A stretch of DNA of 62,458 nucleotides, filler included, from Sphacelaria rigidula (taxonomy: Eukaryota): the NCBI GenBank assembly GCA_964200075.2. It is 6 parts of 6 records of this genome, joined end to end, with 100 filler letters (N's around TTAATTAATTAA, not from the genome) between each part and the next. Parts side by side here need not be neighbours in the genome. Positions count along the whole stretch, not along the records: positions 1 to 10,329 come from CAXNAA020006713.1; 5 more parts are not named here. One strand, written 5' to 3'. Positions 1-58,246 of this stretch are shown one piece after another (position 1 is the stretch's first letter; each line of letters starts with the position of its first letter). The notes beneath the pieces were generated by a model. That model made no database searches, was not told the origin of the DNA, and saw only the letters and a program-made list of their open reading frames with translations. Both the position numbers and the translations under genes were made by a program.

Positions 1-807
1 TTTTGGGGGGGGGCTATCGTAGAAAGTGTCAAGTGTTGTCAAGTTCCCGTTTCTGCGGGGAGCACGGATGTTTTTTTTTTTTAATCGTGACCTGCTGCAT
101 CCATTCTCGTCTGTGATTGGTTGGTTGGGTGGTTGACTGAGTCCCTCGCGTCAACTGATTTTACTACAGATGAAGACGCAGTCACTGGGTGTACTCGAAG
201 CCCAGGTGAAAGAACGGAAGCATTCGCCGAACAAGAATCGAGCAGAAACGGCGACAGTTCGGAGACACGAGACGGAAGGAAAGAAAAACGACAAACGGAA
301 ACCAAACAAAAAATATATAGAAACAAGATGGTGACAGATATATGAAGCGAGCAATGCTGGTCGGTTGAGTAGGTTGACCTCAGGTCGACGCACATGAGCG
401 ATGGCTGAACGTGAACTGTACCTGGTTTCACTGTTTACCGTCGTAGTCGGATCTCCATATGGTGACATGGCCCACAGTTTTGTCTGTTTTGGTTATGGTT
501 TTTCAGTATACTCCTTTCCCTTGTTTTATCTTTTTTTCGTCCCCCCCCCCTCCCCCTCTCACACTTTTCGTTTTATTTGACGAGCATTCCGTTTTGTTCA
601 CTTTGTGTACATCAATCATGTGGATAATAACCTCATACCACGGCTGGGTCCTCCGGGGATTAGTTCACGTGTGATAATCAAATCGACCAATAAATCAAGT
701 CCCGAATGCACCGCACGCGTTGCCTAGAACACCCTCTGCACTCCCCTTGCCCGAGGGCTCTCGGTTTGCCTTGGGTTGGTAATTGGGTTTGCGTTACCGT
801 AACCTAC

Positions 808-839
<32 letters not shown>

Positions 840-1835
840 TATATCCTACTTGCTGGTCTGAGACAACGCTTTACCTCCTCCCCGACGATGAGATACGCAT
901 ATCCTCTCCTCAAGCACCTTCACGCGGCGTATAATTTGAAGTACTACACGGCTCGGACGAATCATCGCCGTTTCGAATAACTAAATCCACGATTTCTCAG
1001 GCCTGATTTATCGAAAGAGGGAAAAAAAGCCGACCGCTGGTTAAACAGTCTCCACGCAACTTTTGCGCCATTCCACGTGCCTGGGCTGCGCGTACGTGTG
1101 TTGCAACGCTGAAAACGAAGCGTGAGGATTGATTCGTACCGTACGAATCAATCATACTAAAATCAAGTCATTTCCGGACGAATCGTTACTTCGCCCGGCC
1201 CTTGAAATACTAGCCAATTTGCGAGAGGGTCACAAGATGCTTCTAAGCGCATGATGTAGGGGTACTATGGGAACATCGACACCCTTGATATGTACCCCTA
1301 GGACCAGCAGTCACATCACCGTTCGGTTGTGATGGACCAAAACGGTGGATACCACCCCCGGGGACGGCTATTTTCCTATCCCTGGAAGAACCATGGACCC
1401 CACCTCCGCATGAGACTTTGACGTTATTTTTAGGGTGATTTCTATATAGACGTACGCACCATGCATCAATTTCCGACCCTTGATGAGGTCTTCAATGTTA
1501 TGAAATGGTCGAAACAAAAGAGGGGCAACATTAGCCTGCAAGTTGGTCAAGATTCCAAGGGCAGGTCGAGTAGAGTATGTACTTTTGAGTACTCGAGGAA
1601 AACACGAGTATGTACTCAACTCAATTTTTGACTAGGTCTAGTACGGCCTCAAACATTTTTCTCAAATTAGGAGTAGGTTGTACGGTCTCAAATACCCGAC
1701 TCAAATTTTGAGTAGATTGAGTACAGCCTCTATTTCGAAGGGAAATCGGGGTGGGGGTGGGGGGGGTTAGAAGTACGACAACAGTATAGGGTAACAAGTC
1801 CCAAATATCGAAGTACAGCTTGTATGAAAGCCGTA

Positions 1836-2954
1836 CACGCTGGTTCAGATTGAACGCACAAAATTTTGACCCCGGGAATTCTTCACGCCGTTTTTTCGAG
1901 TTAGACCACGAAATTTTGCACACATATTTTGGAAGGCAGTATCTCAAACTCGAAGAATGTTTATTTTTATTTTATTTTTTGTGTCGAGGTAGCCGGGATC
2001 TGACCCCCCTCCGGTCAAGTATTCCAGCCGGGACCCCGAATAACCGGCCACCAAGACAAAAATAACCTCCCCCCCTCTTCGAGTTTTAGATACTGACGTC
2101 CAGAACATGTGTACAAACTTTCACGGTCTAACTCGAAGAAACGGCGTGAGGAAATTGCAAAACATGCGCTAAAGTATAAGCAAGTCTGTAATTACTTGAT
2201 TCAAGTACAGAATCGTCCTTTTTGGGGGTTGTTTTCACGGTAAAAAGAACCAGCCGATTCAGTTTTTCGAGTTGAGCAACGAAAATCGGTACACATGTTC
2301 CTTGGGGTACCACCTAACTCTAAGATGTCAAAATTTTGGTGTTGGGGCATTCTGTACCGGTTTCCTGGGATCTTTATGCTGGGATCCCCGGAAGCCGGTA
2401 GAGAACGGACAAACTTTGAAATCTTGCCAAGAATATATATTTTTCCATTCGGGACATCAATACCTACGGAACTGCCAAGTTTGAGGAGGATCTGAGCTTT
2501 TCTCCAGCAGATAAAAGGGAAATCGTCACGAGGCTCCGTGGGTCTTTCGTACGTATCATGAGTGGAAATTAGACGACGCCAAAGCTCCGTATCACCGAAA
2601 CATTACGGTTTTGGGCAAAATTCGACCCCGTCGGAACCGTTTTCAACTCTGTTTCTCCCGTTAGATTCCCAAGCTGATGACGGTTACTACGATTTGAACC
2701 ATGTGAAGATTCGGTGGAAACTGGGCTTGGAATTCGTATTTTCAATTTCGGAACAATTTAAAAGGCGCTGATTGGTCGAGACATATTTTTGTCCACAGCA
2801 CCACCGCTATAGCCTTGAACAAAAACCCGGCTATGTCACCCTTTTCGTCTGTTCATTGCGTTCAGTATGATAACACATTTGTGCATATTGGCTGGGTATT
2901 TCGTTCGTCATCAGACGGGGTCGAAATTTTGTGCGTTCAATCTGAACTAGCCCG
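1836..2954. mobile_element. Non-autonomous TIR element (MITE) with TA target-site duplication, Tc1/mariner-type
   Basis: 39-bp TIRs: CACGCTGGTTCAGATTGAACGCACAAAATTTTGACCCCG vs right end reverse-complemented CGGGCTAGTTCAGATTGAACGCACAAAATTTCGACCCCG (4 mismatches). TA at 1834-1835 and 2955-2956. No transposase ORF. Confidence 0.75.
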
Positions 2955-3659
2955 TAATGATATATGAAGGTTGCACATTATTGTTTAATTATTATTATTT
3001 CCGTCTTGTTAGCTTCATGTCTCGAATCCGTGGTCACAGAGTGCGAGGAGCATACCATCCACGACTAATGCCGAGATAGCCCACCCCACAAGAAGTGCAC
3101 CGGAGACCGTCCGACAAACCGGCTGCGATCCCACTATTGGGCACGTGTGCAGCAATTTCACCCACATGAGAGGCGTGTAGCAGTCCGAAATCAGCTACTA
3201 TATAAGGCCCAAATGAGTCGCGTCGTGCAGCACGAAACCAGCTCTAACGGCGTTTATGATCATCGCCTCCGTGCACTTTTGGGGTCGGTTCGGGGCGGGG
3301 GGGGGGGGGGGGGGGGGGGACCATGATTGTCGCCACTGAGCCTTAATACAGACAAACAAAAACAAGAAAAAGAAGANNNNNNNNGGGGGGGGGGGGGGGG
3401 GGGGGGGGGGGGGAGTATCTCGGCAGCAGACCCATCATACTCGTACACCAAAAAAGCTAAGAGAGGAAAGCTTGAAGCAAAAACTCGACGCGACAAAACT
3501 GCACCTACGCGCGCAAGAAATCCGTATACCGGTCGAACTACAGGAAACCGACTGAGAACCAATGAAGTCCCGGCGTGCAACCTCATTGACTACTTCGCCA
3601 CGCATTGGTGTTCTACACGGTGTAGTAAAAGCGAGTTCGTTAATCGAGATGTCATCCGG

Positions 3660-3852
3660 TGTGATTTCCACCGTGGAAAGCTTGAGAACGTGAGTGGACA
3701 AAGTAGTCGACTGAGTTTGTCTGGCGTGAGTTGATGCGGTGCGGGAGTGCTGATCCAATCCGCGAGATCAAAATGCAAGGCGAGTACCGGGGGAGAGATG
3801 GGTTGATCCCTTGAGACCATGGACTCATTCCGAGGAAGGGGAGGGGTTCAAA
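3660..3852 (+). mobile_element. SINE family A, 3' body and tail
   Basis: GGGTTGATCCCTTGAGACCAYGGACTCA..CCGAGGAAGGGGAGGGGTTCAAA is shared with copies at 12655-12903, 15430-15565, 24163-24200 and 30050-30802. Confidence 0.65.
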
Positions 3853-5194
3853 TTGATTTATTGATTTTGTTTGATTGTCGCACTTCAACTAATCCCCAGG
3901 ATTCATGATTTAGCCGTGGTCACATGATAGACGTACCCGAAAAAAAAAAACGGAAACACTCGCTGAAAAAAAAAAAAAGGAATAGGGAAAAAGTGGAACA
4001 TAACGACAAGTAGACTACGACGGTAAAAAACAAAAATAATAAAGAGTGAAAAAAAAAAAATCGGGACAGGAAGCAACCCCCAATAGATGTCATGTCTAAA
4101 GCGCTGCTTGAAGAGATGCCTCTACAGCGCCGCGATGATGGAAACGGAACAAACGTAAGAGAGGGAGATGTGAAGAAAAAAAAGAAGAAAAAATCAAAAG
4201 AAGGACGAGCCGATCGCAAAGAGGAGGAAACATCGGAAAATCCGTTCTCCCTTGGGTTCTACAGTAGCCAAGTACGAGCAGCATCGTCATAGAAACAAAA
4301 CATACGGGGCGTGTCTAGCCTATACACCACATAGCGCTATCAGCATGATTGCAGAATTTGTCCAGAGTGTCCTATATTCAACCATGAAAACATGCCATAA
4401 AATCTGTACGTAGTGACGGCGACAAAAACCCCCAACCATTGATCAAAATCCATTTGAAAAATGATATTCCGCTCCTCAAGGAAATGTGCCGTCCTACTCT
4501 GTTCTTCTCCGCTCCGGGTTCCTGCTTGGCTGCGAGGTCGACATCCTGACGATGCCATCCGTCCATACTAGCGTCCATGACCGACGCTTTCATCCATCCT
4601 CGCCAGTGTCCATGGTCCTGCATGTTCTCGTCGTTGTTCGCAGTCATGCAGAATATTTTCAGGGTTGTCCTCGGTGCTTTACCCGCAGTGAAAAAACGCG
4701 ATTTCCTGCGATATTTGGATACTATCTCTACTAATTGCTGCCTTTCATCCACCCCTCCTTCCCCACAGGTGGTGTGTTGTTATGCGGTGCTCTTCTTGTT
4801 ATGGCCAGTATATTTGTACACATGGCTGTCCCTCTAGGGGTACAAGGATAGAACCCTGAGATTCTCATCGCTATGGCTGGTGATCTTGGTCTCTGAGGTT
4901 AGCTCCATTCCTGTTTGGACTCGCGTGTGGAGTAGACCATTGGGCCCTGCTTCCAGTAGCCCGAACGGTCGCCCGCAGCATCGAAATTTGGGAGGTTGGC
5001 AGTAATTTTCCCCTTATTTTTATGACTATATGTTTTTTATTCGTTTGCTTCATGTTTCTTTTTTTGTCGCGTCTGTGTGAATTTATCCTGGGTCCGATTT
5101 GGATAGTTAGCCTGTTAACCACCGAAGGCGTCCGCATCAGATGCCTAGTACAGAGTACCGCGGAGATATCGGGACAGGTTTTTCTTATCTAAAG

Positions 5195-5195
<1 letters not shown>

Positions 5196-5239
<44 letters not shown>
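5196..5239 (+). repeat. (ACA)n microsatellite
   Basis: Perfect trinucleotide run. Confidence 0.95.
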
Positions 5240-6157
5240 TTCGTCGTACCGCGCAAATTTGCAACACCCAACACCCATGAACCGCCGTACCGCGGATCCG
5301 TTGGTAACCGGGCCGCAGGTATGACAACCGCGCGGTACTCTACCGGACTTAATCGAAACCGTGCCAAGTACCGCGCAATACATATTTTTTTTTCCCCTTG
5401 ACGGAAGGAAGAAACCTGACCCAACGCTTACCCCGCAAGCGGGTTCGTGGGCCGATTACCCGTAGGCTCGGCCAGACTGCCTCGCGGTAATCGTGTGAGG
5501 CAGGCGCCTCGAGCGTTCGCAAGCTTTGCTCAAGGCAGTATGGGGGGCGGACCCACTACACCTCCTATCAACTTGGTGCAGTACACACACCATCATGCTC
5601 CTATGAGCTTCGGCCTTAGTGATAGACGTGCTTCGTATTACCGCACCGCCGTGAGGTTATGAAGCGAAAACCGCGGTACCGCTCGTCAAAAGATATGCCG
5701 TTCGGCCTCCGTTGAAGTGATTTTGTTTTCTCCAATATTTTTTGTGTTTGAATATTTCAATTTCCCATAAGCTTCATGGATGAGACATTTCGACTCTAGA
5801 ACTGGAGTGCATGACGAAGGAGGAGCTGTTCACACAAAGGGAAGCAGTGGTCGTTGCACAGCGAATTTTGATCGGTATTGATCTGCGCTTGCAGATTTTA
5901 CGCTGTCGGCCACGATTCCCGGGTTAAACAAACACAACCCTGGGACGTTGAGCAAGTGCTGCTAGACGCGTTGCGCCTAAAATCGTTTCCTCTCACAGAA
6001 TCGAGGCTGTCAACATGCTGCACTAGCAATGCCCCCCAGCATGATGCGTCATACCACAGTACGATACACAGAGTAGAACAACTCGCACTCCGACAGCGGG
6101 AGACGTCATTGTCAGAGATTGGGGTGACGATCACACTGTGCTACGTTTTGGTGAAGA

Positions 6158-7644
6158 TGGCCCACTTGACTCTGGCAGATGTGACGATGCTCACTGTGCC
6201 TGACCTACGCCCTGTGACCACTCATGCAGCACCGTCAGGCAACGGTGTGCGCGACTCATTTTCAGACTTTTCCTGTGTAAACGACCATGAGAAGCATGTA
6301 TTGGCGATCATCACTATTCTGTGAATGACCCACTCTTGAGCTTAGTAGCCTTGAACATTCTGCGTATTGTTTATTTGAAAATTGATTCAGACCGCCTCAC
6401 TACGCCAGGGCATACACGCCAGACGAACCACCCCAACGCTGTACTTCCTTGCCCGCCCGATGTATGCTCTTTTCTTTGTCACAAACACAGGCCACCATCG
6501 ATACTGCAACATGAAGACTGCTGCGACCACCGCTGCTGCCGCTGACGTCAATTGAGTCATCGCCGTGGAGGTACGCCCTGCTTTGGACACGGCTCCGCTG
6601 GCGGTCGCCCGCCCCTCCATTGGCACCGTCTCCGACGTCCTTACTGCCCCATCGACTTACATCTGCAGCCGCACCGCCTGTCTCCACGCTCCGCACTATA
6701 GCCCCAGCTCCGGCCCTGGTCCGGGCTCCAGCCCCGCCGTCGGCTCTCGTCGCAATCGCTCCGTCGTTCGACGCCGCCGCCGTGCCGACCCGTCTCCGAT
6801 GCTGGCTTGGTCTCCGACGCCGTTGGTGCTCCACCCACCATTTTCTCCGCATTCTTCATCTGTATCCACGCCCCGTGCAGTGTCTACGCTCCGTGCCGTA
6901 GCTCCAATCTCCATCCCGATCCCGGCTCCAGCCCCGCTGTCGGTTCCCGTCGCTACCGCTCCGTCGGCCGATTCCGCCGCCGTGTAGACCGCAACGCCAG
7001 CCGCGCTCACATCTACCCATCCATTGGCCCCTTCGGCAGCACCCTCAGCCCCGGACACCCTGTCGTTACGGGAAGTAGACTCGTGCCCATCATCCTGCCC
7101 CATTCGTATTTTCACCACCCCGGGATGTACCCGGAACGGAGAGGACGAACTCGTCGCCCAGTCCTGCGAACATGAGGTTCGCCGTCATGGTCAAATGATT
7201 GCGGCCTGGCGGGCCGCAGATTGCAAAGGTGAACAGCTTATCATCACCCAAAGGCATGATTACTCTCACGGCGTCACGATCGAGGCCATGGCCGCCGCCA
7301 GCATGAAGTCGCTCGCCGCCTTCACAACGCGCACCAACATGCACTCGCCGCTGTTCGCCACCAAGCGATTCAGCATCGAGCGTCCAGCGAACGCGAGACC
7401 ACCCTTTCAGTCCGGCGAGCGGGGAGCAAGTCACATTCTTCATCCAACCTCCACCTCCACCGCTTTCCCCCCGCCTCGTTCACCTCGTAGCTATATTACC
7501 GGCCGCGTCATTCGGCGCCGCCGACTGCTCCCTCGTTGGCACAGGCTGCTGTCTCCACCGCAACACCAATGGTCGGTGCCTCGGCTGTTGTGGCTCTTCC
7601 CACAGGTGGGGCTGGGCAGCCGGAAAGTTGGTGCATCCTGCTGA
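6158..7644 (+). pseudogene. Decayed, frameshifted ORF of unknown (possibly gag-like retroelement) origin with a Pro/Ala-rich linker
   Basis: Protein-like segments in shifting frames: MAHLTLADVTMLTVPDLRP..., then AVSTLRAVAPISIPIPAPAPLSVPVATAPS, then EDELVAQSCEHEVRRHGQMIAAWRAADCKGEQLIITQRH. There is a ~200-bp internal tandem duplication (~6680-6790 vs ~6880-6990). No domain recognised and no LTRs found. Confidence 0.35.
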
Positions 7645-8255
7645 CTACTTCCATCGGTGGAACGAATAGCAACAGTCGAGGTACCAGCCGTGGGTGTTCT
7701 GGTGGAGACCGTAGCTTGTGTCGATGACGGAACGGTCGGCTGCGCCGATTTCATACGGCCTGCGCGAGCTGGTGTCAGCTGACATAGGGGGTCAGCATGG
7801 CGAGGTCAACCAGGGGGAGGGGGGGATAGGTTGTACGGAGCACGTGACTCTCCGACGCTGGCCTGCGAGGGTGGGTGGCCTAGAGCTCGAGATGTGCTCG
7901 ATTTTGAATAGATTTGATGAGTCTTGTACTCGGCGTCCGATTGTCATGACTGTTGGCAACAGCGGCGAGTGCATGTTGGTGGTCGTTATGGCAGCGGTGA
8001 GCGGCTTCGCGGTTGCTGGCGGCGGTGGTGGCCTCGGTCGTGCCGTGATGAAGGGGATCGTGCCTTCAGGTAACGATGAGCTGTTCGCCTCAGTCATCCG
8101 CGGTACGCTAGGCCACACACGGTTGGTTATGATGGTGAACCTCATGTTTGCAAAACTGGAGGAACAGGTCGTCCTGCCGGCACTCGTGGCGGTAAAAGCG
8201 CCAATTGGCGGAGATGGTGAACACGCACCGTGCCTCCTCCGCCCTCTACCTGTTT
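7075..8255 (+). repeat. ~1.2 kb imperfect inverted repeat, predicted rod-like RNA hairpin
   Basis: Arms pair around a centre at ~7630, e.g. 7534-7591/7669-7726, 7203-7260/8057-8114 and 7165-7197/8120-8152. These blocks are ~74% Watson-Crick and ~91% paired when G·U is allowed on the + strand. Confidence 0.85.
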
Positions 8256-9549
8256 TGATTCCTCTCAGGAACATTACTCTCCCCATGCCCTAAGATCACA
8301 CGCCGAGACTGAAAAGTGACTCACGCCTCCTAGACTTGGACTGGAACCTGGAATCTTGATCAACGTTCATCAATCGTCCGAGGATAGATCTTTTCGGGGC
8401 CGCTATCGGAGTCTGGTCGTCTGCTCGTACGCTTTTTTTCGAAGTTTTTGTTCTTTTTATGGTTTGCACTCATGGATTTCGGCTGACTCGACTTATTTTG
8501 GTCCTATCGTCTAGCATACGCCCTTCCTCCGTGTAGAGGCATAGCTGACTGTCATATTTGTTTTTGTTGTTTCATTGTTGCCACAGGTTTCAGGAGATTC
8601 TACCTCATTGTGAGAAGAAGTTTGGCATGGAGGGGCCAAACGTTGTGTTCCTCCGCTATGGTATGGATTATCAGTTGTCGGGTTGGAGCGATAATTCCCC
8701 GGTGACGGGCGAGAGAGACGGGCTTCGGTTTTGTTCGTCTTGTACGGCGTTATTTGGATATTTGGGACTTTTCTTTTCAATGCATATTTTGGAGTCTTGA
8801 TGGCGCAATATTGTTGCTCCATAGCGACTCGGATGCAAACTTAACGAGGGCGTGTCTAGGTGGGCTGTTGTAGTAAGACTCAAAGGCGGTACATCGTATT
8901 GGATCCTGCCCGCATAGATCCATTCGTAGAACGTGGTACTGGTGTGTGATCCAGTGATTTGCTCCAGTTGACACATCAACGATTATATTCCAAATTATAT
9001 CGGGTTATTCGACGTGGTATGGTAGCAGAGGAATATCCTGTACCTTTGCAGGTACCAGTACTCGTTTTTTACAGGTGAGGGTCTCGGATCGTTTAGGGGA
9101 GTGATACCGCAGTAACCCCCCCCTTCCCCTATACCAGCGCCAAAGCTGCCACGAAGATTACGGCCATATAGCGCATGATGGCTGATTTCAGACTGCATAC
9201 AACACCTCATGTGGGCGTCATGAGAACCCAAGCGTGGGAGTTCCGAGCTACTCGGTGTGCTGGGGTTTTGTAATTTGGATTCACATGTACACTTCGCCTT
9301 CTGAAACAGCCATCACTCAGGGACTGTGCCACACGCCCGTGTAGCTCACTCTGTCGCTCCTTCCCGTTTTCATGTTCTGGTGGCGGTGTGCTCTGAGTTG
9401 AGTGCGCGGTTAATAGCTTGTAGCTTGATAAATGTTTCGCTACCGACAAGTCAAGCGGCGGTGAACGAAGCCGATTGTGTGGTGAGGGCACTGTACTTGA
9501 ACACCCTTTATGTACGAGCTGGGCCAGCCGAGAAGCGAATTCCTAGTTT

Positions 9550-10090
9550 GTAGGCCCATTAACCGGCCAATGTTTAGAGTTAGACCTGAAATTATGTATA
9601 CGTCATAATAAAAACAAATACCAGTGCACACAAGGTTTTTTTTTCTCATGAGTTGAGGGCAATAATCAGTTTTCAGGTATCAGAACAATACCCGTCACTC
9701 ATGGGAGAAAAAAACCCTGTGAGCACTGGTATTTGTTTTTATTATACTCTATTCATTGTCCATACCAAATTTCAGGGTCCAACTCTGAACATTTGCCGGT
9801 TAACCCTTTGGGAACTAAAGTGCTGATTCTTGTTTTGTGAATCTTTGTGAATTGGCATCATTTTGACTTGAAAATGACTGAAAATTATGCCGATTCACCA
9901 AAACAAAGATCAGCACTCCCTGGGGGTCTAGTTCCCAAAGGGGCCTGCAAACTACAAATTCAGTACAATATCCTTAACTCATGAAGAAAAAACTTGTGTG
10001 CACTGGTATTTGTTTTATTATGCCCTACTATTCATTGTCTATACCAAATTTCAGGATCCAACTCTAAATATTGGCCGGTTAATGGGCCAT
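9550..10090. mobile_element. Foldback/MITE-like element with ~100-bp inverted arms and an extra internal arm copy
   Basis: GGCCCATTAACCGGCCAAT...AATAAAACAAATACCAGTGCACACAAG (9553-9655) is inverted at ~9975-10090, with a third copy at ~9700-9805. Confidence 0.6.
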
Positions 10091-10329
10091 TTAGTGACAG
10101 GGTCAGAAGAAATTCGAAGCGATATTTTGTAGGCGAACTACCGGCCCACGTGCGGTGTTTGTGTATTAACACTTTGTGTGGGCCCTCCCTAGGGCGTTAT
10201 TAACAAAACAAGGTGGGTAAGAACAGTGGATTCTCGAAAATGGGCTTGAAACAAAAAATGAGGTTGAAGTCGCATTTCTCTATTGCAGAGAAGATACGAA
10301 ACAGTAACACAGAGCGAAAGTATCTTCCC

Positions 10330-10429
10330 NNNNNNNNNNNNNNNNNNNNNNNNNNNNNNNNNNNNNNNNNNNNTTAATTAATTAANNNNNNNNNNNNNNN
10401 NNNNNNNNNNNNNNNNNNNNNNNNNNNNN
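10330..10429. other. Artificial contig linker (N44-TTAATTAATTAA-N44)
   Basis: 100-bp N block with a central TTAATTAATTAA (stops in all six frames). The same linker occurs five times between contigs of 10329, 10328, 10326, 10325, 10325 and 10325 bp. Confidence 0.98.
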
Positions 10430-10800: not shown

Positions 10801-12167
10801 ATAAGAGGGAAACAAAAAAAAAGAGAGATGGATGCACCCGCCAAAAGTTGACCCGCCCGGACCTACCTATGGCATGTACAATTTCCGTGCCATACCATTG
10901 AAATGATGAATAATTGCATAGTTGATATTGGCCGCTCGATCAACTTTCTTCGTTTCATTCGATAATAGGTTTCATTCTCCTTTCGATTTTTATGTTTATT
11001 TTCATCTTCATTTTCATGCTCTCCTCTCCTTCTTCCTGTGCGGTATTTTCCTCGCTCTGCTGCTGTAAACATACATGAAAAAGACCAAGGTCACTTCTAG
11101 CCAACTCTCTGTTGCTTCCTTGCCTCTCTCCTGCCGGCTTCACTCACCGCCGTCTCCACCGCTTGCGCCGTCAGACTCGGCCACCCCACCCAGTTTTCGC
11201 CTTTTGCTTTTTGATGACGGATCTGCCGTCCCCAGACCTTGTTCCTTTGCGTCGCTCTTTGCCTGCAGACATGGCGAGACGGGGGGCGTACTCGTTTGCG
11301 GCTGCATTCAGAATCGGCATCATTTTCACTCGATCATGTTGAATATGATACATCGGGAGAGACGAGTTGAGAATAGAAAGAAACGAGATGACGGTGTGAG
11401 ACGACCGGCGTGCCATCGCTCTCCACTGAGTGCCGTCTACTCTCGGAGCAGGGCTCCAACACCTCAAGCGTATTTTTTTCATCTCGTATGCATGTCTCTC
11501 CCTCCCTGTTCAGCTGCTACAGCGCTTTTTCCTCATCATGATCGATGGCTACGTGCAACGCTTCTTCCAGATTTGTTCCTCTTCTTAATCTTATTTCAGT
11601 CGACATCATCGGCATCATGATTGAGACATATCCTTGACCTCGAGTCATTGCGGTCGAAAATATAACTTCATTACTTTCCTTTCTCGGGTCGAACGGCAGC
11701 ACCTCATACTCTGTGGGTCGGTTTAAAACCTCGTGAGCATGCTTTCTCCTCGGGTCGTCTGTTAACTCATCAACGGGCGCTGACCCTTTGTGTGCACGTC
11801 TTTCTTTTTTTCACACAGTCAGGCCCACCTTCTCTCACAACCACGACCAGTTAACATGTGCCTTGGCTGCCAATTGTTTTAGCGTGGCAGCGCTAGCCGC
11901 CGAATTCTTGTAGTACGTATTTGTACATACATACAAGGATCGGACGTGGCCGCCTATCGGCGGCCACGTCCTCTAGGATAGGTGTGGAAAGGGATTAATT
12001 TAATTTGGGAGATGGTAAAGGCAATGACTCCTACCAAGAGGTTGAGCCAAAGATTGGATATCTGTATCGATTATGACACTATGTTATATGTGATGAGTAG
12101 AAAATGGAAGATCCGGCACGGGCGTAATGTTTGATTCGTTCGTTCGCGCATTTTTTTCACCCTTTCA

Positions 12168-14035
12168 GGGCGTGTCTTAGGCCAACTCCAATGGTAGCCG
12201 TTCAAAATTCCTGTTTAAAACTGCCTTTTAGGCCCTTCTCCGTCGATTTACGCCCGAAAAGAGGGCTAGACGCATGTTGACGCAGTGGAATGACTTGCTC
12301 TACTCGTTGAGGCCATTCTAGGTCAACTTTACATTTCCCGCTGGCCGCACTTTTGTTTTTGGCCAAATGAGGCCAAACACGAACTTTCAGTATAAAACGG
12401 TCAGGCGATCAAAATTTCCCTCGTTTCGTTGATCGCTTGACTGTCTTTTGTTGAAAATCCGTGTTTGGCCAAAAATGAAAGCGCCACCAGCGGGAAATGT
12501 AAAGTTGCCCTGGAACGGCCTCAATGAGTAGAGCAAGTCATTCCAAGGCGTCAATATCCGCCTAGCCCTCTTTTCAGGCGAAAAACGACGGAGAGAGGTC
12601 AAAGAGGCAGTTTTGAACAGAATTTTTGAACGGCTTCGATTTTTTTTTCCCCTCACACTTTGAACCCCTCCCCTTCCTCGGGATGAGTCCGTGGTCTCAA
12701 GGGATCAACCCGTCNNNNNNNNNCGCACCGCGTCAACTCACGTCACACAAACTTAGTCGACTCCTTTGTTTACTCACGTTCTCACGCTTTCCAGGGTGGA
12801 AATCATACATTACGAAGGAAAAAACGAACACATCGGAAATTGAACCCCCGTTCTCTCCATCCCAATGGCGATAGTCGGACCATTACACCACCGGGGCGCG
12901 GCACCATTAGAGTCGGTCTAGGGCAAAAAAAGCAGTTTGCAACAGGAATTCTGAACGGCCCCCATTAGAGTCGGTCTAAGACCGATTCTAACGGGGGCCG
13001 TTCAAAAATTCTGTTCAAAACTGCCTTTTTGGCCCTTCTCCGTCGTTTTACGTCTGAAAGAGGGCTACGCGGATATTGACGCCTTGGAATGACTTGCTCT
13101 ACTCAAAGAGACCGCGCCAGGGCAACTTTACATTTCCCGCTGGCCGCACTTTCATTTTTGGCCAAACACGGATTTTCAACAAAAAACGGTCAAGCGATCA
13201 ACAAAACGAGGGAAATTTTGATCGCCTGACCGTTTTATACTGAAAATTCGTGTTTGGCCTCATTTGGCCAAGAACGAAAGTGCGGCCAGCGGGAAATGCA
13301 CAGTTGCCCTAGAACGGTCTCAACGAGTAGAGTAAGTCATTCCAAGGCGACAACATCGGCCTAGCCCTCTTTTCGGGCTTGAATTGACGGAGAAGGACCC
13401 AAAAGGCAGTTTCAGACAGGAATTTTGAACGACTCCCGTTAGAGTTGCCTTAGGGCGTGTCTTAGCACATCGCTTTCCGATCGAAAATGTGGGGTGGAGA
13501 ACAAAAATCCTGATTTGATAAATCATAATTTCAACCATCGTCGAAAATTGTGAAGATCGAGATTTGTTTCTTCAACCGCACATTTTCGATCGAGAACCAA
13601 TATTTTAAGACCGACTCTAATGGGAGCCGTTCAAAATTCTTGATTAAAACTGCCTTTTTGGCCCTTTTCCGTCGTTTTTCGCCTGAGAAGAGGGCTAGGC
13701 GGATATTGACGCCTTGGAATGACTTACTCTACTCATTTAGGCCGTTCCAGGGCAATTTTTGCATTTCCCGCTGGCCGCACTTTCATTTTTGGCCAAACAC
13801 GGATTTTCAACAAAAAACGGTCGAGCGATCAACAAAGAGTGGGGAATTTTGATCACCTGGCCGTTTTTTACTGAAAATTCGTGTTTGGCCTGGTTTGGTA
13901 GAGCAAGTCATTCCACGGCGTCAACATCCGCCTAGCCCTCTCTTTTCAAGCGTAAATCGACGGAGAAGGGCCCAAAAGGCAGTTTGAAACAGGAATTTTG
14001 AACGGCTTCTTTTAGAGTTGGCCTAAGACACGCCC
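12168..14035. mobile_element. Cluster of PIF/Harbinger (Tourist-like) palindromic MITEs
   Basis: Three ~420-470-bp self-complementary units at 12180-~12918 (interrupted by a SINE), 12980-13449 and 13609-14023. Ends are G(G/A)CC(A/G)A(C/T)TC(C/T)AA...TTAGAGT(T/C)GG(C/T)C-like, each flanked by TAA or TTA; unit 3 has an exact TAA TSD (13606-13608, 14024-14026). A second family with GGGCGTGTCTTA termini is interleaved. Confidence 0.8.
12655..12903 (-). mobile_element. tRNA-derived SINE family A (head to tail, with an assembly gap)
   Basis: Minus-strand head GCCCCGGTGGTGTAATGG (A box)...GGTTCAATTTCC (B box), followed by the family A body and tail. Inserted into a Harbinger MITE arm. Confidence 0.75.
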
Positions 14036-15429
14036 TTCGCACTTTATTTTCGATCGAAAAAGTGCGGTCGATTTTTTTCGCCGATCTGATACGTGCACTG
14101 CAATTAAGTTCCCAGAAGGCTTCAACTCAAAATCAAAAGTAGGGGCTCGCGGAGAAGAATGCAACGAGGTTGAAAACAATCGTGTTCGATCGAAAACATG
14201 CGGTCGAAAGGCACGAAGCGGCACTTGTCTCCTATCTTACAGACCCCTATGCCAGATAACACCTGTTCACAGGACCATGCAAACTCCATCCAACTCATTC
14301 TCGGCTACCACCGCAATCCTGCAGCATAGCGCACGAGTTGAGCCCAGGAATAGATACACTGCAGTACAGTAGTTGATTGTGCTTTATTTATTTATGTTGG
14401 CGAAAACTTTACTCTGCATCTTCTCTCATGGTGAGGATCAGCGACGGGACTGCGTGGTACGGTGCGCAACCGAGTTGCGTGCACGCTCATGGACAGTGCA
14501 GGCAGCACAAAGCTGCACGTTGCTGAAGTACTCTTCACGTCGCATTGTAAGAAGAGAGAACTGATAGTCCTGGGCTGTATACACTGCACGTTGCCCGCTT
14601 CTCTTCTGTATCCTCCTGAACGAAACACGCACACACGCACCCAAGACACTGCTTGCAAGCAATGCAGACAGTACAGACATACAATAAAATCCGGCTCCAA
14701 AATTCACCGAACTGCGGCAAATCGGCTGTTAAATTCACCGAACTCCGAACGCCGGGAAATCGAATTTTAGGAACACAGAAAGGCCTACAAACAGGCAACA
14801 ACAAACACAGCGCCTATGATTGTTGTTGATTGAAATCATATTGATATGACGCGTCGCGCTTACACGATTCACACGCCTATGGTGTAAGGAAATGTAAATA
14901 TAATCGCGTTACCGTTTGAACGTCATGTGTTGCAAATATACAATAAAGGCTGCGATTGCCATAAAATAGACAACCCAGAAAGAGACGACGCAAAAACCTA
15001 AAAACTGCGACACCAAAATGTACCGAACTCCAATAAATCGTTCCGCAGTCTGGTGTCACCTGTGTTCATCGCGTGTATGCATGTATGCGTGGAATTTCCG
15101 TTTTTCAGAATCAAAGTGTCAGATCCAGCATCAGGGCTCCGCGTATTGCCTATTACGCGCACACTTTCAGGCACTGACTGCGTGGGTCGAAGATCGAACC
15201 TCGCCCTCGTCGAACGTGAACAATGATGGAAAAACACTGCACTATCTCATCAAGCTTTCGAAAATGAAAAATGTCGCAGGGTGAAGTAGAGCTGAAGGGT
15301 TTTGTGAAGTGTACTGTTTAAGAGTAGGTGTAATTGACCCGCTTGCACGGGAGCGTTCACACGTAATCTTAGTTAGACATATAAATATGTATGTTCATTC
15401 TAGGTCTTCTCGTTTGTTTGACGCAAGTC

Positions 15430-16152: not shown

Positions 16153-19100
16153 TACCGACGACCAATAAACTTGACCGTGTAGCACTGTACAGAAGCTGAC
16201 ATAATTTTAACCCTTCGACCGCAAGCGTGATTTAACCATACTACTGACTCGTCTTCATATTTTGGGGTGATTCCCTTGAAAGTATGACAGAAGGAAGACT
16301 CAGAATGCCCTATCCCGGCAGTCAGAGGCCCGAAACGAAACTATCAAAATGAACAATTCCATCGCTCCAGAAACCTGCGCTCGACCTGCCGGAAACGCGA
16401 ATGGTTGATGTGGGAACCCTTCTGACACTCAATTCTACGCCGAGGACTGTCATCCAGCTCTTCTGCGAGAATAAAATAACCCCTCTTTTGATTAGATTTG
16501 ATTGGATTCAATTGCCGCACATCAACTGACCTCCGAGAGATTCTTACAACATCGGAAACAGCGGAAACGGCAGCGACACGGTACTCACGTACATATAGTC
16601 CGTCCACATTTGCTTCCGTGTGCACCACCACCGGGTGACACTCTAACCTGCATACACAGAAAGGTTAAGCAATTTTTGCGACAATCTGCATAGCTGCCGA
16701 CTTTTGATCTAGGGGCAGCGAAAATGGTCAAGGGGGGGGAGTGTACTCATGATCATGCATGCCATAGTCGTAAGACCAGTGACCTCGCGTCCCTACAAAG
16801 CCTGGACGGAGCACGCCGGGTTTCCGCCGGACTAGGCTTGCACTCAAACCACCAAGCACGAAGCGCCGTGNNNNNNNNNNGCCGTGGTGTGTTCGGCGAG
16901 TCGCATGAAGGGTGAGCTGTATTCTGCTACGATTGTTCGGCCCAAAGCCCACTGATTATCTTGCATTTGGATGACAGCAAATAATGAGTTGATTCATTAT
17001 CCAGTATCGCCACTCCCAGAGACAGTCACGGCTTATACACTGCCTCATGGGTGCTTGCCTGTATTTTTTATCGCGAGAGGTGTTGAGCAGTCTCTTTCCC
17101 TCGTCGACCGTTGAGTCGAATTTTGTGCATACACGAAATAGTCGCTCTCCTCTGCTGGGCATGGTGTGAGAAAAATTCCTGGATCGCTCCGAGATTTGAA
17201 CCCACGACCAACCGTCAGAAGGTTTCGAGGTTACCGACTGAGCCACCGGGGCGACCATAAGTAGCAATGGGGAAAATATGGATTGCACGGAACGTAGAAG
17301 TTCTCTCTAGCACGAGATCAAGACGTCGAAGGAAATACCTCATGCACCACAACACCCCCACACCATAATCAACGCTAACCCCCGCCCCATACAAACGTAG
17401 AACAAGTCCCTTGCGCCACCGATTACATCCATACCTTGAAGAGCTCGGGGTTCTTGGCGAACTTAATGTTAAACCGAAGGGACTGTGCCTTCTCCTTGTA
17501 TTTCCCACGGTCCGACCGCGAGAACACGTTCAGCTCGTGCTCTAAATCCCACGCCAGCACGCCGGCCATCACTGCCACCTCCGCCGCAGCCGCACCCTCC
17601 GCCGCCGCGGCTCCCGAACGACCCTCCTCTGCCCCACCAGCATCACCTTTGTCACCCGCGACCCCCAAAGTCACCATTCCTTCGGAGAACAATTCTCGGA
17701 ACCGATCCCGAACCTTCTGACGAAATCTCATCGCGGGAGTCAGAACGTTCCTAGTACGTACCGCCTCCAGTCCCTTCGAAAACTCCTCTTCGTCCTGCGC
17801 TGTCCAAACAGCAGCCGCCGCCGACGCTGCTGCTCCTGCCGCTTTGTCCTTCGCCGCGCTCTCATTTGATACTTGTGAGTTGCTACCAGGGGCCGCGGCG
17901 GCGGCAGCTGCTGCCCCACCCCCCCCTCCTGCCGACGGCTGCTGTTCGCCACTACTACCGCCCGCAGCTCCGGCGGTACCACCTCCACTTCCGCCTGGTG
18001 CTCCCACCGCCGCAACCGCAGCGTTACCATTCGAAGCGGGCACAACACCACGGGATCCAGTTGTACTTGCCACCATCGAGGACGAGTGAAGGTTTCTGTG
18101 AAAAACTAGGAGCGCCTGGCACGCCTGTTTCTGCGCAGCGACGGTACAATCTACCGAGCAGAAAGCGACTTCGTTCGAGACGGCATTCGTGCAACCCTTG
18201 GCCAGACAACGCGGACGCTTGATGCCCATGCCGCCGGGGGTCGGTGCCCCCGGCGCAACCGGCGGCGCCACGACAACGGGCGCGGGGCGCGCTGCCGGCG
18301 CCGGGGCCGGCAGCGCGTCTCTACCCAGCATACGATCGAGCAACGACGACGCGCTCTCGGGGCGCGGGGCGCGCGGGCCCGCCGGACCCTTCTTCGCTGC
18401 CGCCGCTGCTGCTGCTGCCGCCGCCTTGGCCTTGGCCGCCGCCGCCCCCACCGCTGCCGACCCGGCCGCCGCCGCGAGCCGGGCTTGCGCGGCGCTAGTC
18501 GGCGAGCTCGCGAACGGCGACGACGGCACGGAGGCGGCCGCAGCCGCCATCTTAGCAGCGACGCGCTGGGCGGCGGCGGCGGCGGTTCCGGGTATGATAG
18601 CAGCGCCTCTGCTGCTATCCTCGCCCCTGACGGTTTGTTGAACCTGCCGCCGCTCCTCCGCTGCCAGCCACTCCACGAATCCCGGCGGCATGATCCAGCT
18701 TCGCGACGGCGGGTCTGTCCAGTCGTGATCTTCCCAATGTCGCCTGTGTACCCGACAGCCGTGCAAGGAGCAGGTGTTGAAATGAAGGGTAACGAGCAGG
18801 AGAGGCGACGGGCGAAGGGAGAGAGACATGCTTCGTTCTCATGGTGCTACAAGTAATCCAATAGGAAACAAAAAATTGAACGAGATAAATAATGAATGCT
18901 AGATGAAATATCTCAATAATCAGCATTCTAAAATCCACATCTTCTCCCAGAGAAGCGACTTTCCCTCTCGCCTTCGCCGTCGCCGCCTCTAGCACCATCC
19001 CCCATGTCTCAATCATGAGACCGCCACAAAGAACAACAACGACAGCAACATGCAATCGCACGCGTCTCACCTGTCTAGACGGCACTGCAGCGCGGTGGCC

Positions 19101-20757: not shown

Positions 20758-20857
20758 NNNNNNNNNNNNNNNNNNNNNNNNNNNNNNNNNNNNNNNNNNN
20801 NTTAATTAATTAANNNNNNNNNNNNNNNNNNNNNNNNNNNNNNNNNNNNNNNNNNNN
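20758..20857. other. Artificial contig linker
   Basis: Same N44-TTAATTAATTAA-N44 linker. Confidence 0.98.
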
Positions 20858-30049: not shown

Positions 30050-30802
30050 GACTTCCAATCCCTCCCCTTCCTGTGGACGAGTTCGTGGTCTAAATGGATC
30101 TATCCGGTACACGCCTCCTTACATTTTGGGTCTCGCGGATTGGATCACGGCCAGCACCTCTGTACCGCGTCAACTGTCGTCAAACGAGCTATTTGTTTTA
30201 GTCATTCCTCACGCTTTCGAAGGCGGAAATCAAATATATCGTACTTGTACTTACCAAAAAAACACCAAGCGCATTTGGCGGGAAACACGGGATTTTACAA
30301 ATTGGGAATGGATCTTTTATTGGGGGTGAGAAACCCGGAGAATTAAAATATTCGTATCCACACCAAATCTTTGAAATATGGTTCGATTTATTCACCTCCT
30401 GATTGCTATTGACGACTGCTACACGCCATAGAAATTTCAATTTCGATCACCGAACTGTTGAGGTCCTAGGTGAAAAACTCATTTGGGGGAATTTCGGGTG
30501 CCCGAACGGACGCCAAAATGGTTCCGAAAATGGTGTTTCACCCAGGATCCAAACATTTCGGTGATCGAAATCCAAATTTCTATGGCGTATAGCAGTTGTC
30601 AATAGCAATCAGTAGGTGAAGAAATGGAACCATATTTCGAAGACTTGGTGTGGATACGAAGATTATAATTCTCCGCGTTTCTCATCCCCAATAAAATATC
30701 CATTCCCATTTGTAAGATCCCGTGTTGGGAGTCGAAGCCACGTTCTCTTCACCCTGAAGGTGTCAGTCGGCCCATTTTCACATAGTCCACCGGGGCGCGG
30801 CA
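30050..30802 (-). mobile_element. tRNA-derived SINE family A, interrupted by a foldback MITE
   Basis: Head GCCGCGCCCCGGTGG...GGCTTCGACTCCC at 30802-30727; diverged family A body and tail at ~30280-30050. Confidence 0.6.
30284..30726. mobile_element. Foldback MITE with ~200-bp TIRs and a 4-bp GGGA duplication
   Basis: AACACGGGAT(T/C)TTACAAAT... arms are inverted; GGGA at 30280-30283 and 30727-30730. Confidence 0.85.
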
Positions 30803-31183: not shown

Positions 31184-31283
31184 NNNNNNNNNNNNNNNNN
31201 NNNNNNNNNNNNNNNNNNNNNNNNNNNTTAATTAATTAANNNNNNNNNNNNNNNNNNNNNNNNNNNNNNNNNNNNNNNNNNNN
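31184..31283. other. Artificial contig linker
   Basis: Same N44-TTAATTAATTAA-N44 linker. Confidence 0.98.
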
Positions 31284-41608: not shown

Positions 41609-41708
41609 NNNNNNNNNNNNNNNNNNNNNNNNNNNNNNNNNNNNNNNNNNNNTTAATTAATTAANNNNNNNNNNNNNNNNNNNNNNNNNNNNNNNNNNNN
41701 NNNNNNNN
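41609..41708. other. Artificial contig linker
   Basis: Same N44-TTAATTAATTAA-N44 linker. Confidence 0.98.
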
Positions 41709-52033: not shown

Positions 52034-52133
52034 NNNNNNNNNNNNNNNNNNNNNNNNNNNNNNNNNNNNNNNNNNNNTTAATTAATTAANNNNNNNNNNN
52101 NNNNNNNNNNNNNNNNNNNNNNNNNNNNNNNNN
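52034..52133. other. Artificial contig linker
   Basis: Same N44-TTAATTAATTAA-N44 linker. Confidence 0.98.
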
Positions 52134-57638: not shown

Positions 57639-58246
57639 ATCTTGATCTATTGTAATTGCCATAGGACCAAACATAGGCTGAACCAGAAGCACCGAGATTT
57701 TTCGCTAGGAACACTAATCCGCGCGCCCGCATCGTGTGCGAAGTCTGTCGCGCAGCTGCAAAGAGTCCACTGGGTTTCCCACCTCACCATTGTGACAAGA
57801 AAAAAAAATGACGCAGCCGCTTCTTTGCGCGATCTCTCTTCCTGAAGCCATGCTGCAGGGTCTAGCCATTTTCTATACGTTGTTCAGTGTTTTCTTGCTT
57901 ACTTTCCTCTCTTTCGTTCGTTCTCATTTTTATTATGTTCATCGAGACCGGCTTTTCGCGCCTTAGTTTCCCTCCCTTTTCTAAATATGTGTGTATTTAC
58001 ATGTATACTTTTTTTTCGTTCTCGTTCAGTTTCCTCCGTCAATTTGATGTTTGTCTCTCCGTCTACTTCCTTCCTCGAGTGAAGTTCCTAGAGCGAGTGT
58101 TTCCCTTTTCGTTACCTTCATCACGTACGTCTATCTTATGGATCATGACCACGACCGGACACGCCGGAGATCAGTCAGTGTGCGACAATCTATCAACCAA
58201 GCAATCAAGCAATAAAGCAAGCAATCCTTCGTTCCGATCGCAGACG

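What the first reader, a model, noticed from the sequence alone, without database searches (positions are those of the whole stretch)
7075..8255. ~1.2 kb rod-like RNA hairpin with strand-specific G·U bias, built from a decayed ORF and its antisense copy
Seen: the arms ~7075-7610 and ~7650-8255 pair almost continuously. In three hand-aligned ungapped blocks (149 positions) I count 111 Watson-Crick, 24 G·U, 7 A·C and 7 other mismatches on the + strand (7:0, 6:6 and 11:1 G·U:A·C). Neutral decay of a DNA inverted repeat should give G·T and A·C about equally; the DNA foldback MITE at 30284-30726 gives about 4:3. Inference: the pairing was maintained in a + strand RNA (or single-stranded intermediate). 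The left arm is still an open frame (7024-7644) and the right arm is a diverged antisense copy of it. Candidates are a LARD-like non-autonomous retroelement with an internal rod, an element carrying its own silencing hairpin (hpRNA/siRNA source), or an endogenised rod-shaped RNA replicon. I recognise none of these specifically. The blocks were chosen by eye, so the bias needs an unbiased recount.
Basis: partly seen in the sequence, partly recalled or inferred. Interest (0 to 1): 0.85.

Follow-up and report, generated by a model that had tools for sequence, protein, structure and literature searches.

The report
Transcribed long RNA hairpin, brown alga
An old head-to-head duplication of about 540 bases sits inside a spliced, apparently non-coding transcript of a brown alga, so the RNA can fold into a very long imperfect hairpin of the kind cells cut into small silencing RNAs; it is a candidate of a known class, not a new kind of element.

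Summary
The inverted repeat is real. Arms 7082-7619 and 7641-8225 align over 526 positions: 372 Watson-Crick, 57 G·U, 32 A·C and 65 other. The + strand folds better than the - strand (-679.2 vs -618.5 kcal/mol).

The G·U excess holds but is weaker than claimed: 1.8:1 with p=0.01, not 3.4:1. Twelve other inverted repeats in the window give 66:70.

The "decayed ORF" is not supported. There is no codon periodicity, the ORF length is reached by 110 of 1000 shuffles, there is no Pfam, PDB or sequence relative, and AF2 pLDDT is 43.5.

New here: contigs of two RNA-type runs carry both arms in one piece. They end or branch exactly at three canonical + strand splice signals (6490|6491, 8069|8070, 8586|8587). 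DNA-type runs pass straight through. The G·U-favoured strand is therefore the transcribed one.

There is no sign of a repeat family, a ribozyme or a circular form. Homologues of a cyclin in the window point to a brown alga, a group that has Dicer and Argonaute.

Best reading (0.45): a transcribed long inverted repeat, that is a candidate hpRNA/endo-siRNA precursor. Main rival (0.35): a neutral decaying duplication whose skew comes from transcription-linked mutation or chance. It would be a new member of a known kind, of modest interest.

The parts
6489..6490 (+). AG of a 3' splice site (pyrimidine tract ...TCTTTTCTTTGTCACAAACACAG|GCC); exon starts at 6491
   Evidence: The 1703-nt contigs of X1 and X8 fit from 8071 down to 6488, then run on for 119 nt unlike the stretch. 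Motif read. The 3-nt overhang (CAG) is what an upstream exon ending in CAG would give (inference).
6491..7081 (+). C-rich 5' part of the hairpin-bearing exon, with direct repeats spaced 200 nt (6680-6790 / 6880-6990, 75-78% alike); all three + frames meet a stop by 6555
   Evidence: repeats; stops; covered by the RNA-type contig; composition.
7082..7619 (+). left arm of the inverted repeat
   Evidence: alignment; folds.
7620..7640 (+). tip of the hairpin (unaligned 21 nt; the local fold pairs almost to a 4-nt loop)
   Evidence: the repeat finder I2 leaves 11 nt between the arms.
7641..8225 (+). right arm of the inverted repeat
   Evidence: alignment; folds.
8070..8586 (+). facultative GT..AG intron (CAG|GTAACG ... 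pyrimidine tract CAG|GT). It would remove the outer 156 nt of the right arm. G8069, G8070 and U8071 are paired inside the stem in the MFE.
   Evidence: In X1 and X8 the contigs end at 8071 and start at 8042, then end at 8613 and start at 8584 (30-nt overlaps). The shared CAG and GT explain both ends to the base. X4 and X9 contigs bridge both places. Motifs; pairing. The spliced junction contig itself was not in the rows shown.
8587..9554 (+). downstream exon or continuation of the transcript; 3' end not defined (it runs into repeats)
   Evidence: X1 contig 8584-9214 and X8 contig 8584-9554.

Best explanation
A single old inverted duplication (arms about 540 nt, tip 11-21 nt, arms now 29% mismatched) lies inside an exon of a spliced + strand transcript with no convincing reading frame, in what is most likely a brown alga. 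The RNA folds back on itself into an imperfect duplex of about 1.1 kb (442 pairs, uninterrupted helices of 30, 24, 17, 17, 16, 16 and 15 bp). I read it as a hairpin-RNA (hpRNA) locus: a long transcribed inverted repeat that Dicer can cut into endogenous siRNAs. The modest surplus of G·U over A·C on the transcribed strand would be the trace of weak purifying selection on RNA pairing while the DNA palindrome decays.

Shown: the repeat, the strand difference in folding energy, both arms in one contig of RNA-type runs, and three + strand splice signals at contig ends.

Inferred: that those runs are RNA (the tool only guesses so), Dicer processing, any target, and selection as the cause of the skew.
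For: Repeat and fold: (z -20.7 on +).

Strand asymmetry: 57 G·U vs 32 A·C of 526 aligned positions (p=0.0105), against 66:70 in 12 control inverted repeats (Fisher p=0.028). The + strand is 60.7 kcal/mol more stable than the - strand.

Transcript: the X1 and X8 contig 6488-8071 holds the whole left arm and 431 nt of the right arm. Contig ends at 6488, 8071/8042 and 8613/8584 coincide to the base with AG|G, CAG|GTAACG and CAG|GT on the + strand. X4 and X9 contigs bridge 5517-9540 and 5517-9193 (motifs). So the strand predicted from G·U is the strand with the splice signals.

The part of the stem kept after splicing shows 40:18 (p=0.005); the part whose partner lies in the intron shows 17:14.

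Strain differences: 7 lie in aligned pairs. Five toggle Watson-Crick with A·C and one toggles C-G with U·G. The recent input is therefore not G·U-biased, whereas the fixed differences are (1:5 vs 57:32, Fisher p=0.032).

Non-coding.

Lineage has the machinery: Ectocarpus has one Dicer, one Argonaute and two RdRP homologues (PMC4513859, Table 2 passage). The closest named cyclin-L relatives are brown algae at 87-88%.

G:U-rich hairpins still trigger RNAi and escape inverted-repeat self-silencing in plants (PMC9263138, abstract and passages).
Against: No small-RNA data could be seen, so dicing is untested. No target or parental gene was found.

The pairing is poor for an hpRNA: 70.7% Watson-Crick and 65 transversion mismatches.

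The skew is modest, was noticed post hoc, and weakens under some alignment settings (23:14 p=0.19; 55:36 p=0.06). Inner versus outer stem do not differ significantly (Fisher p=0.25).

Placement of G·U gives no energy gain beyond their number: 29 of 77 fixed-count permutations fold as well or better. Only the post hoc 'helices of 15 bp or more' counts looked unusual (p=0.016 and 0.006), while the longest helix and the sum of squares did not (p=0.23 and 0.16).

Five of 7 strain differences in the stem change pairing, and the arms are not less polymorphic than the flanks (X9: 5 of its 9 differences fall in 1144 of 3677 nt). Any constraint is therefore weak.

Both transcribed flanks have T>A skew of +0.21, as transcription-linked mutation bias would give.

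X1 and X8 come from one study, and their RNA nature is the tool's guess.
Confidence: 0.45

Rival explanations
1. Neutral relic. A fold-back inverted duplication happened to arise in, or be swallowed by, a transcribed region and is simply decaying. The G·U surplus on the + strand comes from transcription-associated strand-asymmetric mutation (more C>T and A>G on the non-template strand), or from chance plus post hoc choice. The RNA hairpin has no function.
For: 29% mismatch with 65 transversions. No placement effect on energy. Pairing-changing polymorphisms are common. T>A skew of +0.21 in both unpaired transcribed flanks and a G+T surplus of 12.6% in 8226-9200. p is only about 0.01-0.06 for most settings. 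No target found.
Against: Control inverted repeats are balanced, 66:70. Recent differences run 5:1 towards A·C rather than G·U, which a G·U-making mutation bias does not predict (only 6 sites). The skew is concentrated in the part kept after splicing, 40:18 vs 17:14, though both parts are transcribed and the difference is not significant. The upstream flank 6491-7081 is strongly C>G, so there is no uniform G+T skew.
Confidence: 0.35
2. A cis-acting RNA structure rather than an siRNA source. The stem buries the 5' splice site 8069|8070 (and perhaps binds dsRNA-binding proteins). It would thereby control retention of intron 8070-8586, or the stability or location of the transcript.
For: G8069, G8070 and U8071 pair with C7248, C7247 and A7246 in the MFE. 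The intron-containing contig 8042-8613 is present in both RNA-type runs. Full-length hairpin RNA is assembled, so it is not fully consumed.
Against: A 1.1-kb stem is far more than is needed to mask one splice site. No coding part of the transcript was found for such regulation to act on. Contig depth cannot rank isoforms.
Confidence: 0.1
3. A transposable element: a foldback element, two tail-to-tail insertions of one family, or a LARD-like non-autonomous retroelement with an internal rod.
For: The locus lies between highly repeated sequence (3631-5709 and 9175-10320 attract thousands of contigs). Foldback elements exist in the same window.
Against: No other copy of either arm in the 62-kb window. 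The DNA-type contigs of X4 and X9 run unbranched through 5517-9540 and 5517-9193, and summed depth on the arms stays near that of the one bridging contig; this is a hint only, since the tool says depth is no copy number. No LTRs or terminal repeats were seen around the arms. No TE protein domain.
Confidence: 0.05
4. An anciently endogenised rod-shaped RNA replicon (viroid-, obelisk- or delta-like) now transcribed from the host genome.
For: The size (about 1.15 kb), the rod-like fold over the whole length and an ORF of about 200 codons on one half resemble the obelisk description (10.1101/2024.01.20.576352, abstract as listed).
Against: No ribozyme or other Rfam match, even at E<=1. The ORF is not longer than chance, has no relative, low language-model recognition and pLDDT 43.5. 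The RNA contigs continue into genomic flanks and no circular joint was listed. No match in viral contigs to the best-conserved 20-mer. The two halves are recognisably one sequence and its reverse complement with no codon phase, as a DNA duplication gives.
Confidence: 0.02

Closest known systems
Animal hpRNA loci (Drosophila endo-siRNA hairpins; PMC10317233 and PMC10292708, abstracts as listed)
   Same: A long inverted repeat transcribed as one RNA that folds into a long hairpin; a host locus, not a transposon.
   Different: There the siRNAs, Dicer-2 dependence and target genes (often the parental gene) are demonstrated. Here no small RNAs were seen, no parental or target gene was found, and the arms are 29% mismatched.
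Plant long inverted repeats / hpRNA loci (LIRBase, PMC8728187, abstract) and engineered G:U hpRNA transgenes (PMC9263138, abstract and passages)
   Same: Arm length, short loop and transcription through both arms. In the engineered case, G·U pairs keep the RNA duplex while breaking the DNA palindrome; 18-21.5% G:U still gives RNAi.
   Different: Natural G·U share here is 10.8% of aligned positions, alongside 18% true mismatches. The benefit shown in plants is escape from DNA methylation, which may not apply in a brown alga (not tested).
Young MIRNA genes made by inverted duplication of a target gene (Allen et al. 2004; seen only as a reference-list entry in PMC4513859; content recalled)
   Same: Origin by inverted duplication and decay of a long stem.
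   Different: Defining homology of the arms to a protein-coding target was sought and not found.
Ectocarpus miRNA loci (PMC4513859, passages)
   Same: Same lineage; hairpin transcripts processed by the single Dicer.
   Different: miRNA hairpins are short and precisely cut. This stem is about 1.1 kb and would give heterogeneous siRNAs. That paper mentions siRNA loci and 'long transcribed inverted repeats' only in general terms in the passages I saw.
Foldback / MITE elements (e.g. window 30300-30487 / 30524-30711)
   Same: Two arms with a short spacer.
   Different: Those are short (188-nt arms), 87% paired and balanced 5:5 for G·U:A·C. The hairpin shows no sign of being a family member.
Obelisks and other rod-like circular RNAs (10.1101/2024.01.20.576352, abstract as listed)
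   Same: About 1 kb and a rod-like fold over the whole length.
   Different: The hairpin is embedded in DNA and in a linear spliced transcript. No Oblin-like protein, no ribozyme, no circular form.

Membership tests
hpRNA / long-inverted-repeat siRNA locus | Long inverted repeat with a short loop | tested here: met
   Arms 538 and 585 nt, 21 nt unaligned between them.
hpRNA / long-inverted-repeat siRNA locus | Both arms transcribed on one RNA molecule | tested here: met
   The X1 and X8 contig 6488-8071 spans the left arm, the tip and 431 nt of the right arm, and the next contig overlaps to 8613. Splice-site-shaped contig ends lie on the + strand only. Caveat: RNA is the tool's guess, and the runs are from one study.
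hpRNA / long-inverted-repeat siRNA locus | Dicer-type small RNAs (about 21-24 nt, duplexes with 2-nt overhangs) from both arms | not testable with these tools
hpRNA / long-inverted-repeat siRNA locus | A complementary target transcript | tested here: inconclusive
   No protein-level relative of two of the arm frames. No genome is held for a DNA search.
Proto-miRNA by inverted duplication of a target gene | Arms homologous to a protein-coding gene | tested here: not met
   No Pfam family. No hit in 5.8 billion clusters for the left + frame, near and longer lengths. In 1.84 billion representatives, the only hits were the locus's own two ORFs. No codon phase in mismatches.
Foldback / MITE / LARD transposable element | Multiple dispersed copies | tested here: not met
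   No copy elsewhere in the window. DNA-type contigs are unbranched across the locus. A whole-genome search was not possible.
Foldback / MITE / LARD transposable element | Terminal repeats and target-site duplication at the ends | tested here: inconclusive
   Nothing evident when 7040-7100 is set against 8205-8270; no systematic test.
Rod-like RNA replicon (viroid, obelisk, delta-like) | Circular RNA, absent from host DNA | tested here: not met
   DNA-type contigs hold it within unique flanks. RNA-type contigs continue into the flanks, and no circular joint was among the rows shown.
Rod-like RNA replicon (viroid, obelisk, delta-like) | Self-cleaving ribozyme or family protein (Oblin, delta antigen) | tested here: not met
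   Rfam: 0 matches at gathering score and at E<=1. Pfam: 0. AF2 pLDDT 43.5.
Rod-like RNA replicon (viroid, obelisk, delta-like) | Rod-like fold over the whole length | tested here: met

The most novel reading that the evidence does not exclude
A long-lived natural 'G:U-type' hairpin RNA in a brown alga. Selection has kept the RNA duplex for tens of millions of years while letting the DNA palindrome decay, so G·U accumulates only on the transcribed strand. The stem also buries its own 5' splice site (8069|8070), so splicing and dicing of the same transcript compete. This would be the first hpRNA locus described in brown algae, and a natural counterpart of the engineered G:U hpRNA design.
Probability: 0.2. 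Interest if true: 0.6.

Novelty: new member of a known kind. Interest (0 to 1): 0.38.

Why it matters
If the hairpin is processed, it gives brown algae an endogenous hpRNA/siRNA locus. In the passages and listings I saw, only miRNAs and unspecified siRNA loci are described for this multicellular lineage.

It also offers a clean natural test of an open question: is a strand-specific G·U surplus in an old inverted repeat a usable signature of RNA-level selection, or just a by-product of transcription-linked mutation?

If the locus is neutral, it is still a caution. Both arms' chance ORFs have already entered a public protein collection as orphan proteins.

Tried and rejected
Expression records: no RNA holder is listed on record for the stretch. 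X1-X3 and X8 are only guessed to be RNA.

Missing cover: X1 and X8 have no cover at 5710-6402, where X4 and X9 do. The tool rules that missing cover is no evidence, so I do not count it.

Whole genome: none is held. Copy number, parental gene and targets could therefore not be searched at the DNA level.

Coding reading of the arms, rejected. All of these gave nothing:
- Pfam on four arm ORFs.
- The word-indexed search on the left + ORF, near and longer lengths.
- The exhaustive HMMER search on the right + ORF, which returned only the locus's own ORFs from another strain's 3677-nt contig.
- PDB.
- The Atlas, with recognition 1799 and no hit.
- AF2, with pLDDT 43.5.

The third frame of each arm was not searched.

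Relatives by DNA: the 20-mer of the perfect helix (7336-7355) gave 0 viral contigs and 2 metagenome contigs (L001, L002). These share only 21-33 nt in 63% GC sequence, which is chance.

Rfam: nothing. tRNA: none. Tandem repeats: only a 15-nt hexamer run.

Placement tests:
- Permuting all mismatch labels looked significant but is confounded by poorly aligned stretches.
- Permuting only G·U and A·C labels gave mixed results.
- The threshold-free energy version gave nothing (29 of 77).

Splitting the skew into C>T versus A>G by hand was too noisy to report.

Earlier findings of this scan: nothing by place, sequence or words.

Taxonomy from the Atlas on the cyclin ORF: uninformative.
Full report
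WHAT IS THERE

The repeat finder and a local alignment of 7000-7640 against the reverse complement of 7641-8300 show one inverted repeat. The left arm is 7082-7619, the right arm 7641-8225, in 14 ungapped blocks. The 526 aligned positions split into 372 Watson-Crick, 57 G·U (27 with G on the left, 30 with G on the right), 32 A·C (10 and 22) and 65 transversion-type mismatches. Only 21 nt separate the aligned arms, and the local fold pairs almost to a 4-nt loop.

There is no second copy of either arm in the 62-kb window.

FOLDING

As RNA, 7075-8255 folds to -679.2 kcal/mol on the + strand. That structure has 442 pairs (54 of them G·U) and helices of 30, 24, 17, 17, 16, 16 and 15 bp. The - strand folds to -618.5 kcal/mol, with 427 pairs (34 G·U) and helices of 24, 17, 12, 12 and 11 bp.

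Fifteen dinucleotide shuffles per strand give z = -20.7 (+) and -14.8 (-). The tool's own folds of 7000-8300 give -701.1 and -656.4.

THE G·U BIAS

It is not an artefact of one alignment, but it is not robust to all of them. Five parameter sets give 57:32, 49:26, 23:14 (a short alignment of 3 blocks only), 57:32 and 55:36, with p from 0.01 to 0.19.

Hairpin versus controls gives Fisher p=0.028. Several of the control pairs in 12.1-14.0 kb overlap, so they are not independent.

The bias is therefore real in direction, about 1.8-fold, and of modest significance for something noticed post hoc.

NOT A DECAYED GENE

- Mismatches fall evenly on the three codon phases (55, 51 and 48 of 176, 174 and 176 positions).
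- The 218-codon stop-to-stop frame 6988-7644 is matched or exceeded in 110 of 1000 dinucleotide shuffles of 6988-8293, and in 69 of 1000 shuffles of the left region alone. From its first ATG it is 149 codons.
- Four arm ORFs have no Pfam family.
- The left + ORF has no relative in the word-indexed collection, at near or longer lengths.
- The right + ORF, searched exhaustively against 1.84 billion representatives, finds only itself at 99% and the antisense ORF of the left arm. Both were called on one 3677-nt contig of another strain.
- PDB gives nothing.
- The language-model recognition score is 1799, below the 2300 that 91 in 100 real proteins reach.
- A single-sequence AF2 model has pLDDT 43.5, pTM 0.28 and no residue at 70 or above.

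The third frame of each arm was not searched.

IT IS IN A SPLICED + STRAND TRANSCRIPT

Nine runs of three studies hold the stretch.

X4 and X9 behave as DNA: single contigs bridge 5517-9540 and 5517-9193.

X1 and X8 come from one study and are guessed to be RNA. They give three pieces:
- A 1703-nt contig fits 6488-8071 and then runs on for 119 nt that do not fit the stretch.
- A 572-nt contig covers 8042-8613.
- A further contig runs from 8584 to 9214 (X1) or 9554 (X8).

Each of these ends sits on a canonical + strand splice signal:
- 6488-6490 is the CAG of TCTTTTCTTTGTCACAAACACAG|GCC.
- 8069|8070 is CAG|GTAACG.
- 8586|8587 is a pyrimidine tract followed by CAG|GT.

For an intron 8070-8586, the spliced and unspliced forms share the letters GT after 8069 and CAG before 8587. 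That predicts graph branches at exactly 8071 and 8584, as seen, with 30-nt overlaps. The DNA-type contigs do not branch there.

I did not see the junction contig itself; 593 joints and most contig rows were not shown. The intron is therefore an inference from contig ends.

All three + frames meet a stop between 6491 and 6555. The hairpin thus lies in non-coding RNA or a very long 3' UTR.

The upstream exon was not found. No ORF of 90 or more codons in 1-5500 looked like a gene, but those ORFs were not searched against families.

The strand favoured by G·U is the strand that carries the splice signals.

SELECTION OR MUTATION BIAS?

Points for selection on RNA pairing:
1. The count bias and the balanced controls described above.
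2. The stem part that survives splicing has 40:18 (p=0.005). The part whose partner lies in the intron has 17:14 (p=0.72). The two do not differ significantly (Fisher p=0.25).
3. Nine differences between strains fall in 7075-8290, all transitions. Seven lie in aligned pairs. Five toggle a Watson-Crick pair with A·C, one toggles C-G with U·G, and one toggles between two mismatches. Taking the paired allele as ancestral (parsimony; my inference), recent + strand changes are 3 G>A, 2 T>C, 1 C>T and 0 A>G. That is the opposite of a G·U-making mutation bias. Polymorphism 1:5 against fixed 57:32 gives Fisher p=0.032. Six sites is very few, and two of them are shared by X8 and X9.

Points against selection:
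1. With the numbers of G·U and A·C held fixed, the observed arrangement folds no better than random arrangements. Observed is -679.2, permutations give -676.4 ± 7.4, and 29 of 77 are as good or better. Only the post hoc counts of helices of 15 bp or more stood out: 7 vs 4.1 (p=0.016) and 135 vs 84 bp (p=0.006). The longest helix (p=0.23) and the sum of squares (p=0.16) did not.
2. 65 transversion mismatches and 32 A·C remain in the stem.
3. The arms are not less polymorphic than the flanks. In X9, 5 of 9 differences fall in the 1144 nt of the arms out of 3677 nt.
4. Both unpaired transcribed flanks show T>A skew of +0.21, and 8226-9200 has a G+T surplus of 12.6%. Transcription-linked asymmetry would produce this. 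However, 6491-7081 is strongly C-rich, and 5710-6490 shows no skew.

I conclude that RNA-level constraint is plausible but weak, and not demonstrated.

WHAT IT IS NOT

Transposon family: there is no other copy in the window. DNA contigs run through unbranched, and summed depth on the arms stays near that of the one bridging contig, while flanking bins reach 10^3-10^6. The tool warns that depth is not copy number.

RNA replicon: there is no Rfam match at gathering score or at E<=1, no family protein, and the contigs are continuous with the flanks. The best-conserved 20-mer finds no viral contig. It finds two metagenome contigs that share only 21-33 nt.

ORGANISM AND CONTEXT

The window is not one continuous stretch. 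N44-TTAATTAATTAA-N44 linkers recur every ~10.43 kb, so the hairpin's own piece is 1-10329.

A cyclin-L ORF in another piece has its closest named relatives in brown algae: Ectocarpus sp. at 88% and Hapterophycus canaliculatus at 87%. One holder run is labelled 'algae metagenome'.

Ectocarpus has Dicer, Argonaute and RdRP homologues and 63 miRNA families (PMC4513859, passages).

Two full-text searches combining brown-alga terms with hairpin, siRNA and inverted-repeat terms listed miRNA papers but no hpRNA locus in brown algae among the rows shown. That is a limited search, not proof of absence.

VERDICT

The structure is real, and the strand asymmetry is real but modest. The locus is best read as a transcribed long inverted repeat, that is a candidate hpRNA (0.45). 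A neutral relic in a transcript is nearly as likely (0.35). A cis-acting structure that masks the 5' splice site paired within the stem is a minor alternative.

It belongs to a known kind. What is new is the lineage, the possible natural G·U signature and the link to splicing. Small-RNA data would settle it.

Noticed in passing
window 10330-10429, 20758-20857, 31184-31283, 41609-41708, 52034-52133: Blocks of N44-TTAATTAATTAA-N44 recur every ~10.43 kb. The window therefore looks like six pieces of ~10.3 kb joined by stop-in-all-frames linkers, not one continuous stretch. Genes beyond 10329 need not be neighbours of the hairpin.
   Followed up: partly
window 3631-3861 (and 3862-4092): Extremely abundant repeat. 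Summed contig depth reaches about 1.28 million in X4 and 40,000 in X1. Many contigs run from 3852 into poly(A), as for a SINE or other retroposon family. Rfam and tRNA scans found nothing in the window.
   Followed up: no
window 9560-10320: A cluster of short, highly repeated units with 60-nt inverted arms (9594-9653 / 9697-9756) and many contig joints and strand switches; MITE-like.
   Followed up: no
window 12167-14036: A nest of overlapping inverted repeats (arms up to 396 nt, 90% complementary), apparently several copies of one element in both orientations. G·U:A·C is balanced there.
   Followed up: partly
window 30300-30487 / 30524-30711: Foldback element with 188-nt arms, 87% complementary and a 36-nt spacer.
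   Followed up: yes
window 7090-7479 (-) and 7715-8293 (+): The chance ORFs on the two arms have been called as proteins (P0002, 117 aa; P0001, 191 aa) on a 3677-nt contig of another strain, and they sit in a public protein collection as singletons. They are each other's only 'homologue' because they are the two arms of one hairpin.
   Followed up: yes
window 6612-7034: Direct repeats spaced 182-404 nt apart (6680-6790 / 6880-6990 at 75-78%; shorter ones at 6621/6803 and 6612/7016) in the C-rich exon part just upstream of the left arm. Tandem Repeats Finder did not score them.
   Followed up: partly
window 17423-18838 (-), 49282-50922 (+), 57866-58561 (+): Long ORFs with a TFIIS central domain, a cyclin-L-type cyclin (closest named relatives are brown algae at 87-88%) and a uridine-kinase/PRK domain.
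   Followed up: partly
window 3340-3400: A run that reads poly-proline / poly-glycine in opposite frames, interrupted by 8 N (3377-3384).
   Followed up: no
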